Sequence record: OR327751.1
DNA length: 53,268 bases
Direction: 5' to 3' (one strand)
Source: Escherichia phage Ecp_YSF
The first letter of the stretch is position 1. The number at the start of each line of letters is the position of its first letter. This document shows positions 50,248-51,847 of the stretch, in pieces. Both the position numbers and the translations under genes were made by a program. The notes under the pieces are model-generated. The model worked only from the letters and a program-made list of their open reading frames with translations, did no database searches and was not told the origin of the DNA.

Positions 50248-50272
50248 CTGAAACATTAGTTGGATGTGGAAA
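50248..50272 (+). promoter_or_regulatory. Conserved phage motif copy i
   Basis: CTGAAACATTAGTTGGATGTGGAAA. Confidence 0.4.
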
Positions 50273-50346: not shown

Positions 50347-50685
50347 ATGGCTAAGATTGTAACCGTAACTCAGTACGAAGCTAACGATGGTTCCCTGTTC
50401 CTGACCGAAGCAGAGTGTAATGCACACGACTTCAAACTGGAAAACGGTGCTAAAATTGAGAAAGCTGCCGAAGCGTACCTGAACACCGTTGGCGCTATCG
50501 ACCGTTCTCGCTCCATGCAGAAGAACACCATCGAGCAGTTCCTGGCATTCTACCTGCCGTGGGTTGAAGCTGGTGAGCCGGAAGTTGAGCGTACTAAGTT
50601 CGATACTCCGAAAGAAGCCAAAGTTGCTGACGCAAGTGTTGCCGAAGCTGCCGAAGCTGCTGTTGAAGAAGCTCCGGTATTCTAA
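50347..50685 (+). CDS. Hypothetical protein with acidic Ala/Glu-rich C-terminus (112 aa)
   Basis: ATG with AAGGT upstream. Confidence 0.5.
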   Translation: MAKIVTVTQYEANDGSLFLTEAECNAHDFKLENGAKIEKAAEAYLNTVGAIDRSRSMQKNTIEQFLAFYLPWVEAGEPEVERTKFDTPKEAKVADASVAEAAEAAVEEAPVF

Positions 50686-50757: not shown

Positions 50758-51583
50758 TTGAATCCCATTCCAGAGTGAGTGGGCTTCAATGAGCATTCTT
50801 GTGATTAGAGTTGGGAGGTAGGCCGATGCCCAAGCTCGTGGCCCAGACAAGAGTGTTCATTGAAGTAGTTTTCTGAGTCTTACGACGGGCCTAAACTGCC
50901 TGGAGTTATTGCGACTGTTTTATTCATTTAAAATAAATGCAAATGATTCTGAAATGCGAGTTGCGGCTTAATTAAATTTAAGTCCTCTCCGTGGTCTTCC
51001 AATCCCACGTAACCAAATTTGGCGCATTGTGGCTTCGAGATGTGATTAATAAATCGGAGCAATAATTAATTTGTATTCTGCGATGCAAAGCAGGCTTAAG
51101 TCCTCCAGTGCGCGTGGGGATGTGACAGAGTACAAACTTAATTATGCAGTTGGATATTTCTAGAGGACGGACGAGCACACTGGAATGTCTTCAATTGGTT
51201 TAGTGTGAGAAGCTATGCCAATTTGAAACGTAACTCCTTGGGGAAGTGCTCCTCTGGATTTCCCTCCACACAGGAATCTCAAGCCTGTGGCAGCGACTTC
51301 GAAGCTGCACTGCGTAACCTAATTCACCCTAAAGTGAGTTGCCCTGAGCATGGAAATAAACTGCTCTAACCGATGGTATCTACAAAGGTAGATTAAATCA
51401 GGTTGCCTGTTGGTACTTGGGTTCAACACCTGCTTGCACTCGCAAAGTAGTGCCTCGTACCTGAGATGAAGTGAGTCGGGACCATCAATCCCACGTTATG
51501 TCAAAACACAGTAGGCGACTCACAGATTCTACAAGCCTCGCAGTTCGGGAAAACCTGCGTTATCAAAACCCCCCCCTCAATTT

Positions 51584-51676
51584 GGACGAGTAGCTCAGAA
51601 GGTCTGCTCCAGAGCTTAGTCAGGTAGAGCAATCTGTTCGACAGATGTGTCGTTGGTTCGAATCCAACCTCGTCCA
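51584..51676 (+). tRNA. tRNA-like gene, possibly type II (Leu-CAG-like), with atypical D region; CCA encoded at 51677-51679
   Basis: Acceptor GGACGAG / CTCGTCC; T-arm GTTGG-TTCGAAT-CCAAC; candidate anticodon arm 51614-51630 with loop GTCAGGT; variable-arm hairpin ATCTG-TTCGA-CAGAT; D region does not fold canonically by hand. Confidence 0.45.
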
Positions 51677-51706
51677 CCAACTCTCAATAATAAACATGGA
51701 GTCCTT

Positions 51707-51847
51707 ATGGACATTGATGCACTAGACAATTTGGACTTCGGTGCTGCCGAAGAAGCAATTGAAGAACTCAAGAAAAAGCAGGACGAAGAAGCAATCGTTC
51801 CTGGTGCTGGCGATAACGACTGCTCAAGTGGTGCGTGCGCCATCTAA
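51707..51847 (+). CDS. Small acidic protein (46 aa)
   Basis: RBS GGAG before ATG 51707. Confidence 0.35.
   Translation: MDIDALDNLDFGAAEEAIEELKKKQDEEAIVPGAGDNDCSSGACAI

What the first reader, a model, noticed from the sequence alone, without database searches (positions are those of the whole stretch)
51584..51679. Atypical 93-nt tRNA-like gene at the right end
The 5' acceptor strand with TAGCTCAG and the 3' T-arm / acceptor / CCA (GTTGG-TTCGAAT-CCAAC-CTCGTCC-A-CCA) are textbook tRNA, but about 20 extra nt lie between them. One reading is a type II tRNA with anticodon loop GTCAGGT (anticodon CAG, Leu) and a variable-arm hairpin ATCTG-TTCGA-CAGAT, yet the D region does not form a canonical stem. 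It could be a functional unusual tRNA, a tRNA with an insertion, or a tRNA-like decoy / processing element.
Basis: seen in the sequence. Interest (0 to 1): 0.5.

Follow-up and report, generated by a model that had tools for sequence, protein, structure and literature searches.

The report
Phage tRNA look-alike with swollen D-loop
This is a real, strongly conserved gene for a tRNA-shaped RNA in phiEcoM-GJ1-like coliphages (databases call it "tRNA-Arg"), but it has 21 extra bases in its D loop, a shortened anticodon arm and an anticodon that differs between near-identical phages, so it is probably a tRNA mimic and not a normal decoding tRNA.

Summary
Window 51584-51679 (+) has a perfect 7-bp acceptor stem, a canonical T arm and about 20 extra nucleotides. 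The window is a Carltongylesvirus (Chaseviridae) genome; the same locus is annotated "tRNA-Arg, may contain an intron" in phiEcoM-GJ1.

The type II tRNA-Leu(CAG) reading is wrong. The ATCTG-TTCGA-CAGAT hairpin is the anticodon arm (2 nt short), and the 21 extra nt sit in the D loop as a partial duplication of the 5' D-arm half. Removing 17-29 nt there makes ARAGORN call a standard tRNA. A natural allele with a 6-nt shorter insert scores 45.6 bits, full length, on Rfam tRNA.

Across 28 genomes the 72-nt body is almost invariant, while its flanks vary 5-15 times more. The anticodon (UCG, AAG, UAG or CGA), the insert, the discriminator and the CCA drift like intergenic DNA. Homologues in sister genera have only a 12-nt mini-hairpin in place of an anticodon arm. 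Some phages lack the element, and one has a long hairpin plus U-run in its slot.

Best reading: a non-decoding tRNA mimic recognised by host tRNA-processing enzymes. A functional tRNA-Arg(UCG) remains a serious rival.

Side finding: about 610 nt upstream lies an unreported, chasevirus-specific structured RNA with a tmRNA-like tag frame (ANDSEMRVAA*).

The parts
51584..51590 (+). 5' acceptor strand GGACGAG
   Evidence: Pairs 7/7 with 51669-51675. Invariant in 28 genomes. The only change in the partner strand is C68->U, which gives G.U.
51593..51596 (+). D-stem 5' strand GCTC (first copy)
   Evidence: Pairs with GAGC at 51627-51630. This is the D stem used in the full-length Rfam tRNA alignment of the SA91KD allele and in the constrained fold, which is within 1 kcal/mol of the MFE.
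51597..51626 (+). Expanded 30-nt D loop. It holds two copies of the A14-R15..G18G19-U20 motif (AGAAGGT and AGTCAGGTA) separated by a variable spacer.
   Evidence: TAGCTCAGAAGGT and GAGCTTAGTCAGGT form a partial tandem duplication. Outgroup homologues lack exactly 21 columns here. 177 of 451 in-silico deletions in this region restore a default ARAGORN tRNA call.
51604..51618 (+). Variable centre of the D-loop insert (v1 CTGCTCCAGAGCTTA; v2 in GJ1-type phages TTGCATT-GTGCTCA; SA91KD lacks TAGTCA)
   Evidence: pi 0.146 and 1.67 Fitch steps/site, against 0.14 for the tRNA core. The predicted internal hairpin has a different register in v1 and v2.
51627..51630 (+). D-stem 3' strand GAGC
   Evidence: Invariant; pairs with 51593-96 (or alternatively with the second copy GCTT at 51614-17).
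51632..51646 (+). Short anticodon arm ATCTG-TTCGA-CAGAT (15 nt instead of 17)
   Evidence: The Rfam alignment shows the loop 2 nt short. ARAGORN draws it as A.G + 4 bp + a 7-nt loop G-U-UCG-A-C. RNAfold closes it to 6 bp + a 3-nt loop.
51637..51641 (+). Anticodon loop TTCGA (anticodon UCG if read as a tRNA); not conserved
   Evidence: Alleles are TTCGA, TAAGA, TTAGG and TCGAA in otherwise identical bodies. With the insert removed they are called Arg(tcg), Leu(aag), Leu(tag) and Ser(cga). 4 of 5 columns vary, pi 0.167, 2.2 steps/site.
51647..51651 (+). Variable loop GTGTC
   Evidence: Invariant; an ordinary class I 5-nt variable loop with G46 and C48.
51652..51668 (+). T arm GTTGG-TTCGAAT-CCAAC
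   Evidence: Canonical T loop. The only variation is at position 60 (T/C). The 50:64 pair is compensated (U-A to C-G) in outgroup L044.
51669..51675 (+). 3' acceptor strand CTCGTCC
   Evidence: Complement of 51584-51590.
51676..51679 (+). Discriminator A + CCA (not conserved)
   Evidence: Relatives have A-CCA, G-CCA, A-CCC or G-CTC, and A-CCT in the outgroup. pi 0.216.
51529..51573 (+). Invariant block just upstream (CTACAAGCCTCGCAGTTCGGGAAAACCTGCGTTAYCAAAACCC, contains hairpin GCAG..CTGC), followed by a C-run of variable length
   Evidence: Identical even in phages that lack the element (PYps3T) or carry a different cassette (BSBP01). It marks the upstream edge of the variable slot. Its role is unknown.

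Best explanation
What it is (shown). The element is a tRNA-derived gene for an RNA of about 93 nt with a class I cloverleaf: a 7-bp acceptor stem, a 4-bp D stem, a 5-nt variable loop and a canonical T arm. The tertiary-contact nucleotides are present (U8, A14, G15:C48, G18G19, G53-T54-T55-C56, A58). The genus Carltongylesvirus has added 21 nt to the D loop by a partial duplication of the 5' half of the D arm. The anticodon arm is 2 nt short.

How it most likely works (inferred). The RNA does not decode. It lies inside a long phage-polymerase transcript; the nearest phage promoter motif is about 1.3 kb upstream. It folds into an L-shaped tRNA mimic that host tRNA-maturation enzymes recognise: RNase P at G51584, 3' trimming, and CCA repair or addition. 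This processing cuts the polycistronic RNA 28 nt ahead of the small acidic ORF and the spanin genes, and it releases a stable tRNA-like RNA. The function would then depend on the tRNA body (the acceptor/T-arm/D-arm elbow) and not on the anticodon triplet. Whether the released RNA has a further target, such as a tRNA-binding host factor, remains open.
For: Structure:
- The deletion scan restores standard tRNA calls.
- The SA91KD allele scores 45.6 bits, full length, on Rfam tRNA, with an 18-nt D-loop insertion.
- The constrained cloverleaf is within 1 kcal/mol of the MFE, and equals the MFE in SA91KD.
- The cloverleaf is 94.7% paired across lineages, with 3 compensated pairs.

Selection:
- The core has 0.14 steps/site and pi <= 0.02. 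Flanking genes and intergenic DNA have 0.77-0.94 steps/site (pi 0.06-0.17). All 31 unpaired core positions other than T-loop position 60 are invariant.

Non-decoding:
- The anticodon differs (UCG, AAG, UAG, CGA) between phages whose bodies are identical, with no accompanying identity changes. For example, the Leu-type AAG allele has a G discriminator.
- The discriminator and CCA are free to vary.
- The loop is closed by G-C and U-A/U.G pairs.
- Outgroup homologues in the syntenic slot have only a 12-nt mini-hairpin there, and mismatches in the acceptor stem.
- Position 20 is U, whereas E. coli ArgRS relies on A20 (established knowledge of tRNA-Arg identity).

Processing role:
- The element sits 28 nt before the next ORF, inside a transcription unit.
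- In BSBP01 the same slot holds an unrelated long hairpin plus U-run, which looks like a terminator or RNase III site. In PYps3T/4T/16T the slot is empty (PMC8762354).
Against: - RNase P needs little more than the acceptor/T-arm minihelix and the elbow. A pure processing signal does not explain why every nucleotide of the D arm, anticodon stem and variable loop is invariant.
- The commonest allele (UCG, 22 of 28 genomes) would read CGA. The phage uses CGA for 16% of its Arg codons, against about 6% in E. coli (the host figure is from memory).
- U33 and a purine at 37 are kept in all four alleles.
- The three non-UCG alleles are each a single lineage, so they could be rare exceptions.
- There are no expression, processing or charging data.
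- Phages without the element are viable, so whatever it does is dispensable.
Confidence: 0.45

Rival explanations
1. It is a functional elongator tRNA-Arg(UCG) that tolerates a looped-out expansion at the D-loop elbow. It supplements decoding of CGA/CGG, which the phage over-uses and E. coli reads poorly. The other anticodon alleles are rare anticodon shifts or loss-of-function variants.
For: - Database and literature calls of tRNA-Arg by tRNAscan-SE (PMC6266442).
- ARAGORN calls Arg(tcg) once the insert is removed.
- Strong purifying selection on the whole body, as in real tRNAs.
- U33 and R37 are kept.
- CGA makes up 16% of Arg codons (102 codons) in the phage.
- UCG is the majority allele.
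Against: - Natural D loops are 4-11 nt (review PMC7609411). Here the D loop is 30 nt.
- The anticodon arm is 15 nt, with G32-C38 able to close the loop.
- There is no A20, the main E. coli ArgRS determinant (established knowledge).
- Three independent multi-nucleotide anticodon changes to Leu or Ser triplets occur with zero change elsewhere in the body.
- Outgroup homologues lack a usable anticodon arm.
- The element has been deleted or replaced in some phages.
Confidence: 0.28
2. It is a decoy or substitute substrate in a conflict with host tRNA-targeting defences (anticodon nucleases and related enzymes). The body mimics a tRNA and the loop changes under an arms race.
For: - The anticodon loop and the insert evolve at least twice as fast as the average flank, while the body is frozen.
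- The loop changes are multi-nucleotide and confined to the loop.
- Phage tRNAs are known to evade or neutralise tRNA-cleaving defences (PMC10264068, PMC11464382, PMC11555353).
Against: - The rate in the loop is no higher than in the fastest neighbouring spacer (2.04 steps/site), so relaxed constraint is sufficient to explain it.
- I found no known E. coli defence that targets Arg(UCG), Leu(AAG/UAG) or Ser(CGA) tRNAs.
- A 5-nt or G-C-closed loop is a poor mimic of a real anticodon loop.
Confidence: 0.1
3. It is the tRNA-like-domain partner of the tmRNA-like tag RNA encoded about 610 nt upstream (50862-51145), together forming a split, phage-specific trans-translation device.
For: - A conserved structured RNA with a start-less frame ANDSEMRVAA*/ANDNEMRAAA* lies upstream in all four chasevirus lineages examined. 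Its stop codon sits in a covarying hairpin like tmRNA helix 5.
- Weak Rfam tmRNA-family hits.
- The tRNA-like element lacks a functional anticodon arm in the outgroups, as a tRNA-like domain would.
- In L044, a T-arm-like hairpin and a closing stem give a tmRNA-like topology around the tag.
Against: - The acceptor stem has A3-U70, not the G3.U70 alanine determinant.
- The element is a closed cloverleaf with no strand to tether the tag RNA.
- The distance to the tag varies from 0.45 to 2.2 kb, with genes in between.
- BSBP01 and L050 keep the tag module without a downstream tRNA-like element.
- No SmpB-like gene is annotated.
Confidence: 0.05
4. It is a type II tRNA-Leu(CAG) with ATCTG-TTCGA-CAGAT as the long variable arm.
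For: - ARAGORN calls tRNA-Leu(cag) in GJ1 and L030.
- The GTCAGGT loop has U33 and G37.
- A variable-arm loop would be expected to vary freely.
Against: - No D stem can form.
- The anticodon stem would have an A.A mismatch.
- There are 5 nt between the 'variable arm' and the T stem.
- SA91KD deletes the proposed anticodon loop yet is the best-scoring tRNA.
- The Rfam model aligns the hairpin as the anticodon arm.
- Outgroups lack exactly the segment that would hold this anticodon arm.
Confidence: 0.02
5. It is a decaying tRNA pseudogene with no function.
For: - Non-canonical features.
- Missed by predictors in the window.
- Dispensable in some phages.
Against: The core is about 6-fold more constrained than the adjacent protein-coding genes: 2 variable columns of 72 in 28 genomes, where about 25 would be expected at the flank rate. 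Homologues are retained in the same slot across genera.
Confidence: 0.03

Closest known systems
The 'tRNA-Arg' annotated in phiEcoM-GJ1 (NC_010106, gt01, 'may contain an intron'), ST32 ('95 bp, without an intron', PMC6266442), Pel53 and PYps16N/23T
   Same: It is the same orthologous locus, 90-99% identical.
   Different: Those are automatic tRNAscan-SE labels. Nobody has described the D-loop duplication, the short anticodon arm or the non-conserved anticodon. Most relatives (Mangalitsa, flopper, SKA49 and others) do not annotate it at all.
Canonical class I elongator tRNA (Rfam RF00005)
   Same: Acceptor stem, D stem, variable loop, T arm and tertiary-contact nucleotides.
   Different: A 30-nt D loop (natural range 4-11 nt, PMC7609411), a 15-nt anticodon arm, and an anticodon, discriminator and CCA that are not conserved.
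tRNA-like processing elements and stable tRNA-like RNAs: MALAT1 mascRNA in mammals; phage T4 stable RNAs C and D in the tRNA cluster (own knowledge)
   Same: A cloverleaf-like RNA with a reduced or non-functional anticodon arm. Its role would lie in being recognised by RNase P, 3' processing and CCA-adding enzymes, not in decoding.
   Different: No sequence relationship. Processing has not been shown here. The D-loop expansion has no counterpart in those RNAs.
tRNA-like domain of tmRNA
   Same: A tRNA-shaped module without a working anticodon, encoded next to an RNA with a tmRNA-like tag frame.
   Different: It has a true D stem and a closed hairpin in the anticodon position. There is no G3.U70, it is not covalently or obviously base-pair linked to the tag RNA, and the two modules occur independently.
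allo-tRNAs (8/4 and 9/3 cloverleaves; PMC5389517)
   Same: A tRNA family from bacteria and phages with a conserved non-canonical body and many different anticodons.
   Different: allo-tRNAs have altered acceptor/T-stem lengths and a long variable arm that recruits SerRS. This element has a 7/5 acceptor/T layout, a short variable loop and its extra sequence in the D loop.

Membership tests
Canonical elongator tRNA | 7-bp acceptor stem, discriminator, 5-bp T stem with a 7-nt T loop (T54-Psi55-C56, A58) | tested here: met
   GGACGAG/CTCGTCC pairs 7/7; T arm is GTTGG-TTCGAAT-CCAAC. These helices are 94-100% paired across lineages.
Canonical elongator tRNA | D arm: 3-4 bp stem with a 7-11 nt loop carrying G18G19 | tested here: not met
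   The stem GCTC/GAGC is present, but the loop is 30 nt and has two GG motifs. The reviewed natural range is 4-11 nt.
Canonical elongator tRNA | Anticodon arm of 5 bp plus a 7-nt loop with U33 and R37 | tested here: inconclusive
   The arm is 15 nt. It can be read as 5 bp + a 5-nt loop, or as A.G + 4 bp + a 7-nt loop whose 32:38 positions are a G-C pair. U33 and R37 are present in all alleles.
Canonical elongator tRNA | Anticodon conserved among orthologues | tested here: not met
   UCG, AAG, UAG and CGA in identical bodies. Outgroups have no anticodon arm.
Canonical elongator tRNA | Reaches the Rfam RF00005 gathering score / default predictor call | tested here: inconclusive
   Window copy: 27.9 bits, local (gathering score 29), and no ARAGORN call. 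SA91KD allele: 45.6 bits, full length. GJ1 allele: called by ARAGORN, but as Leu(cag).
Canonical elongator tRNA | Aminoacylation and use on the ribosome | not testable with these tools
   Needs charging assays or tRNA-seq from infected cells.
E. coli-type tRNA-Arg | Identity set A20 + C35 (+ G/U36) | tested here: not met
   C35 and G36 are present in the UCG allele only. Position 20 is U whichever GG is taken as G18G19. The identity set itself is from established knowledge.
Type II (long variable arm) tRNA-Leu | D stem, 5-bp anticodon stem around a CAG loop, and a variable-arm hairpin abutting the T stem | tested here: not met
   No D stem is possible; the anticodon stem has an A.A mismatch; there are 5 nt between the hairpin and the T stem. 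SA91KD deletes the CAG loop.
Intron-containing tRNA | Bacterial or phage tRNA introns are self-splicing group I introns (>200 nt) in the anticodon loop; archaeal ones need a bulge-helix-bulge motif and a splicing endonuclease | tested here: not met
   The extra segment is 21 nt and lies in the D region. Its sequence and predicted hairpin differ between variants. The absence of a splicing endonuclease in E. coli is from established knowledge. A bulge-helix-bulge motif was not searched for formally.
tmRNA tRNA-like domain | G3.U70 alanine determinant | tested here: not met
   A3-U70 in Carltongylesvirus; U3/C70 and U4/U69 mismatches in L044 and L047.
tmRNA tRNA-like domain | Physically joined to the tag-encoding domain (one piece, or two pieces sharing the acceptor and P2 helices) | tested here: not met
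   Both acceptor strands lie within the 96-nt element. The tag is 0.45-2.2 kb away with genes in between, and each module occurs without the other.
tRNA-like processing element (mascRNA-type) | tRNA-shaped fold with a reduced anticodon arm, embedded in a longer transcript | tested here: met
   Cloverleaf. The nearest promoter motif is 1.3 kb upstream and there is no terminator between it and the element.
tRNA-like processing element (mascRNA-type) | Cleaved by RNase P and 3' processing enzymes in vivo | not testable with these tools
   Needs end mapping or in vitro RNase P assays.

The most novel reading that the evidence does not exclude
Chaseviruses of the subfamily Cleopatravirinae carry a previously unrecognised pair of translation-mimicking RNAs. 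One is a tRNA look-alike without a working anticodon (this element). The other is a tmRNA-like RNA that lacks a tRNA-like domain and encodes the start-less tag ANDSEMRVAA/ANDNEMRAAA. In this reading the two act together, or with host SmpB and host tmRNA components, to redirect or exploit ribosome rescue during infection. That would amount to a split, phage-specific trans-translation system.
Probability: 0.06. Interest if true: 0.9.

Novelty: new variant of a known kind. Interest (0 to 1): 0.5.

Why it matters
- **Annotation.** A label carried in GenBank since 2008 ("tRNA-Arg") is probably misleading. Studies that count phage tRNAs to explain codon usage or evasion of tRNA-cleaving defences would misread this family.
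- **tRNA structure.** Natural selection here keeps a tRNA body nearly invariant while the D loop carries 21 extra nucleotides and the anticodon drifts. Either the translation machinery tolerates a much larger D loop than any described natural tRNA, or small virulent phages maintain tRNA mimics for purposes other than decoding. Both can be tested directly in an easy E. coli phage system.
- **Side finding.** The neighbouring tmRNA-like tag RNA is confined to chaseviruses and, as far as I could find, unreported. It could open a new view of how phages deal with ribosome rescue.

Tried and rejected
1. **Type II tRNA-Leu(CAG).** Rejected.
2. **Intron.** Rejected on size, position and variability.
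3. **ARAGORN with intron, relaxed-threshold, mitochondrial and tmRNA options.** The calls were inconsistent (Thr(agt) with a 7-nt intron; an undetermined 4-base anticodon), so I did not use them.
4. **Finding the ancestral tRNA by similarity.** The repaired 75-nt body has no relative above about 81% identity. Hits are spread over Lys, Phe, Arg, Asn and Ile phage tRNAs, with none on the E. coli chromosome, so no identity can be assigned.
5. **More alleles from IMG/VR, metagenomes and bacterial genomes.** Only 2 extra metagenome copies and no bacterial copy.
6. **'Hypervariable anticodon under positive selection'.** The tree-based rate in the loop (2.2 steps/site) is no higher than in the adjacent spacer (2.04), so relaxed constraint is sufficient. 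The tree is also blurred by recombination.
7. **Resemblance of the upstream module's 5' end to the tmRNA 5' end.** Not significant: 69 of 1000 shuffles score as high.
8. **A complete tmRNA around the tag.** Only L044 shows a T-arm-like hairpin and closing stem. These are absent from L045, L047 and L050 and from the window. ARAGORN finds no tmRNA.
9. **L003 jumbo-phage hit sharing the 21-nt T-arm/acceptor string.** It is a degenerate tRNA remnant with no matching 5' acceptor strand, unrelated to this element.
10. **Sigma-70 promoter and intrinsic terminator scan around the element.** Nothing above the chance expectation.
11. **Literature on tRNA-targeting defences.** I found no system aimed at the relevant Arg, Leu or Ser isoacceptors.
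Full report
**Context.** The 53-kb window is a complete genome of a phiEcoM-GJ1-like virulent coliphage (Chaseviridae, Cleopatravirinae, Carltongylesvirus). A 601-nt query around the finding matches 47 phage records, 45 of them at 90% identity or more. All genes run on the + strand. The element lies at the end of the early region of small ORFs. It is 28 nt upstream of a 46-codon acidic ORF (51707-51847), which is followed by the Rz-like spanin pair and then the DNA-metabolism block.

**Observation.** In the window itself the predictors fail. ARAGORN gives no call. Rfam at gathering thresholds gives nothing. The permissive scan gives a local tRNA match of 27.9 bits (gathering score 29) over 51613-51668. 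The orthologous locus is annotated "tRNA-Arg, may contain an intron" (95 nt) in phiEcoM-GJ1 and "tRNA-Arg" (a 71-nt call that starts inside the element) in Pel53. The ST32 paper reports it as a 95-bp tRNA-Arg "without an intron" (PMC6266442). ARAGORN calls the GJ1 allele tRNA-Leu(cag). Most other records do not annotate it. So the object is real and partly known, but it has only ever been labelled automatically, and the labels contradict one another.

**Structure.** Reading the sequence, TAGCTCAG...GGTAGAGCA is a standard D arm interrupted by extra sequence. The 5' half is present twice (TAGCTCAGAAGGT and GAGCTTAGTCAGGT). Four tests agree on this layout.
- I removed every segment of 10-31 nt in the D region in silico. 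263 of 451 constructs gave a default ARAGORN call, and 177 of them were tRNA-Arg(tcg). Essentially any deletion of 17-29 nt works.
- The natural SA91KD allele lacks TAGTCA. It gets a full-length Rfam tRNA match of 45.6 bits (E = 5e-7). The alignment uses GCUC/GAGC as the D stem, places 18 inserted nt in the D loop, and shows an anticodon loop 2 nt short.
- With the cloverleaf enforced, the window allele folds at -31.1 kcal/mol against an unconstrained MFE of -32.1. For SA91KD the cloverleaf is the MFE.
- Homologues in sister genera (L044:5721-5792, L047:5950-6021) align with a clean 21-column gap in the D region.

On that alignment the four helices are 94.7% paired, against 32-45% with slid partners. 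Compensatory changes occur in the D, anticodon and T stems.

It also loses its anticodon loop in SA91KD. I reject it.

The anticodon arm is 15 nt. ARAGORN draws it as A.G plus 4 bp plus a loop G-U-NNN-R-C. Rfam aligns it as 5 bp plus 5 nt. RNAfold closes it to 6 bp plus 3 nt.

**Variation.** I collected 28 independent genomes.
- The 72 core nucleotides have two variable columns: C68->U, which makes G.U, and T-loop position 60. Core pi is 0-0.02, while the upstream intergenic region has pi 0.109, the downstream spacer 0.174 and the neighbouring coding sequence 0.061-0.076.
- On a flank-based tree the core shows 0.14 Fitch steps per site, against 0.77-0.94 in the flanks.
- The unconstrained parts are the centre of the insert (two forms plus the SA91KD deletion; 1.67 steps/site), the anticodon loop (2.2), and the discriminator plus CCA (3.0; A-CCA, G-CCA, A-CCC, G-CTC).
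- The loop alleles are TTCGA (22 genomes), TAAGA (3), TTAGG (2) and TCGAA (1). TCGAA is the exact inversion of the common loop. Each rare allele is a single lineage.
- With the insert removed, ARAGORN reads these alleles as Arg(tcg), Leu(aag), Leu(tag) and Ser(cga).
- The body does not change with the anticodon. The AAG allele carries a G discriminator, whereas E. coli tRNA-Leu identity needs A73 (established knowledge).
- The loop rate is about that of the fastest neighbouring spacer (2.04). So I read this as loss of constraint, not proven positive selection.

**Presence and absence.** PYps3T, 4T and 16T lack exactly the element, with a junction at a short CCAC(C) repeat. The authors noted the same absence (PMC8762354). 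BSBP01 has an unrelated imperfect hairpin of about 50 nt plus a U-run in the same slot. The 45-nt block just upstream (51529-51573) is invariant in all of them. The slot therefore carries exchangeable RNA cassettes.

**Sister genera.** L044 and L047 have Rfam-level tRNA hits (35.2 and 37.8 bits) with the same T arm (GYTGG-TTCGAGT-CCARC) and a similar acceptor (GGTTGAG / CTCTCCC, with 2 mismatches). They end in A-CCT and have only GC-UGAAAU-GC where the anticodon arm should be. ARAGORN does not call them. In L045 and PM1, ARAGORN calls an A/U-rich "tRNA-Cys(gca)", but Rfam does not report it at E <= 0.1. The L045 element lies just upstream of a homologue of the acidic Cys-containing ORF and the spanin gene. 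In every lineage, then, the syntenic element is tRNA-shaped but atypical.

**Function.** The decoding hypothesis has real support.
- Selection acts on the whole body.
- U33 and R37 are kept.
- The phage's codon usage fits: CGA is 16% of Arg codons and CTT 24% of Leu codons, against roughly 6% and 10% in E. coli (from memory).

Against it stand the following.
- The 30-nt D loop. Natural D loops are 4-11 nt according to the review PMC7609411, and I found no precedent for a larger one.
- The short, self-closing anticodon arm.
- U instead of A at position 20.
- The non-conserved anticodon, discriminator and CCA.
- The outgroup homologues with no anticodon arm.
- The element's dispensability.

I therefore favour a non-decoding tRNA mimic recognised by host tRNA-processing enzymes. 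It lies within a long transcript: the phage promoter core ATTAGTTGGA occurs 19 times in the window against 4 expected, and the nearest copy is at 50255. No terminator lies between that promoter and the element. Cleavage at the mimic would free the downstream spanin-cluster mRNA, and the hairpin in BSBP01 could do the same job. This mechanism is an inference, and I give the whole statement 0.45. A functional tRNA-Arg(UCG) gets 0.28, a defence decoy 0.10, a tmRNA partner 0.05, and a pseudogene or the type II reading a few percent each.

**Side discovery.** The ORF-poor stretch upstream contains a conserved module of about 285 nt (50862-51145). Its flanks are unrelated sequence in Mangalitsa. A core of about 125-175 nt is conserved in four chasevirus lineages.
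- *The frame.* It holds the start-less frame GCA AAT GAT TCT GAA ATG CGA GTT GCG GCT TAA (50939-50971), i.e. ANDSEMRVAA*. The variants are ANDSEIRVAA* and ANDNEMRAAA*. For comparison, the E. coli tmRNA tag is ANDENYALAA.
- *Coding signature.* Across alleles this frame shows 5 synonymous and 3 conservative changes, and all four Ala codons occur at the penultimate position. The overlapping +1 frame (ATG/GTG start, MQMILKCELRLN) shows 1 synonymous and 8 mostly radical changes. GJ1 has an in-frame stop 6 codons upstream of the tag with no start codon in between.
- *Structure.* The stop codon sits in a hairpin whose closing pair covaries (G-C, C-G, A-U), as in tmRNA helix 5.
- *Similarity to tmRNA.* Rfam tmRNA-family hits are weak (14.6-27.2 bits against gathering scores of 47-50). 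The best local alignment with E. coli ssrA is the tag plus helix-5 region, with 8 of 300 shuffles scoring as high.
- *What is missing.* I found no tRNA-like domain in the module. The exception is L044, where a T-arm-like hairpin and a 7-bp closing stem give a tmRNA-like topology (z = -4.97), but without CCA or G3.U70.
- *Distribution.* The core is absent from 185,579 bacterial and archaeal genomes, and the tag peptides are absent from the searchable literature. BSBP01 and L050 keep the module without a downstream tRNA-like element, so the two RNAs are not obligately linked.

**Verdict.** The gene call already exists, but the anatomy and the evolutionary pattern are new, and they argue that "tRNA-Arg" is probably a mislabel. 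I rate the novelty as a new variant of a known kind and the interest as moderate (0.5). The interest would rise sharply if the neighbouring tmRNA-like RNA proves functional or linked to this element.

Noticed in passing
window 50862-51145 (+); tag frame 50939-50971: A conserved structured non-coding module with a start-less, tmRNA-like tag frame: ANDSEMRVAA* (ANDNEMRAAA* in sister genera). Changes in this frame are synonymous or conservative. The stop codon sits in a covarying hairpin like tmRNA helix 5. Rfam tmRNA-family hits are weak. The module is found only in chaseviruses (four lineages), is absent from 185k bacterial and archaeal genomes, and is not in the searchable literature. No tRNA-like domain was found in it.
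   Followed up: partly
L044:3555-3965 (IMG/VR contig of 56,621 bp, a sister-genus chasevirus): Around its copy of the tag, this genome has a T-arm-like hairpin (TTCGG-TTCAAGT-CCGAA) stacked on a 7-bp closing stem (GCCTGAG/CTCAGGC), which gives a one-piece tmRNA-like topology (fold z = -4.97). It has no CCA and no G3.U70, and the feature is not conserved in L045, L047 or L050.
   Followed up: partly
window 51707-51847 (+): A 46-codon acidic ORF (MDIDALDNLDFGAAEEAIEELKKKQDEEAIVPGAGDNDCSSGACAI) directly downstream of the element and upstream of the spanins. It is conserved across genera, including the C-terminal C-x-x-G-x-C-x-I motif (L045: ...ESDCDGCKI). Its shape (acidic leader plus Cys/Ser-rich tail) resembles a small modified-peptide precursor. 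Function unknown.
   Followed up: no
L032:~440-540 (Escherichia phage BSBP01) and L031 (Yersinia phage PYps3T): The slot that holds the tRNA-like element is polymorphic. BSBP01 carries an unrelated long imperfect hairpin followed by a U-run (terminator or RNase III-site-like). PYps3T/4T/16T have an empty site, with the junction at a CCAC(C) microhomology.
   Followed up: partly
window 51529-51583 (+): A 45-nt block (CTACAAGCCTCGCAGTTCGGGAAAACCTGCGTTAYCAAAACCC, with hairpin GCAG..CTGC) is invariant in all relatives, including those without the element. It is followed by a C-run of variable length (3-10 C). It could be a regulatory or processing signal.
   Followed up: no
window, 19 sites (e.g. 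39375, 44103, 48132, 48320, 49923, 50255; + strand): The core of the phage promoters annotated in phiEcoM-GJ1 (ATTAGTTGGA) occurs 19 times with up to 1 mismatch, against 4.0 expected. 17 of the 19 sites are on the + strand, clustered in the early/middle region. The nearest site upstream of the element is at 50255.
   Followed up: partly
window 51169-51175 (+): A second exact copy of the 5' acceptor strand GGACGAG lies just after the tag module, about 410 nt upstream of the element. It is present in GJ1 but not in Mangalitsa, so it is probably chance or a duplication remnant.
   Followed up: no
L003:7168-7222 (-) (370-kb jumbo-phage contig, IMG/VR 3300030385_002649): Between the tRNA-Phe and tRNA-Trp genes of a 20-tRNA cluster lies a degenerate tRNA remnant (Rfam tRNA 23.8 bits). 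It shares an identical 21-nt T-arm/3'-acceptor string with this element but has no matching 5' acceptor strand.
   Followed up: partly
L002 (PP952070.1, 'Staphylococcus phage Pel53'): This record is 93-97% identical to the coliphage window across this region and is classified in Cleopatravirinae, so the stated Staphylococcus hyicus host looks doubtful. It also has an HNH endonuclease gene inserted between the upstream 112-aa ORF (window 50347-50685) and the tag module.
   Followed up: no
window 51146-51528 (+): The stretch between the tag module and the element has only short ORFs here. Relatives annotate different things in the equivalent place: GJ1 gp30 (80 aa), an 86-aa 'endolysin' in PYps3T, and a T4 Imm-like superinfection immunity protein in Mangalitsa. 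The gene content of this stretch is mosaic and inconsistently annotated.
   Followed up: no
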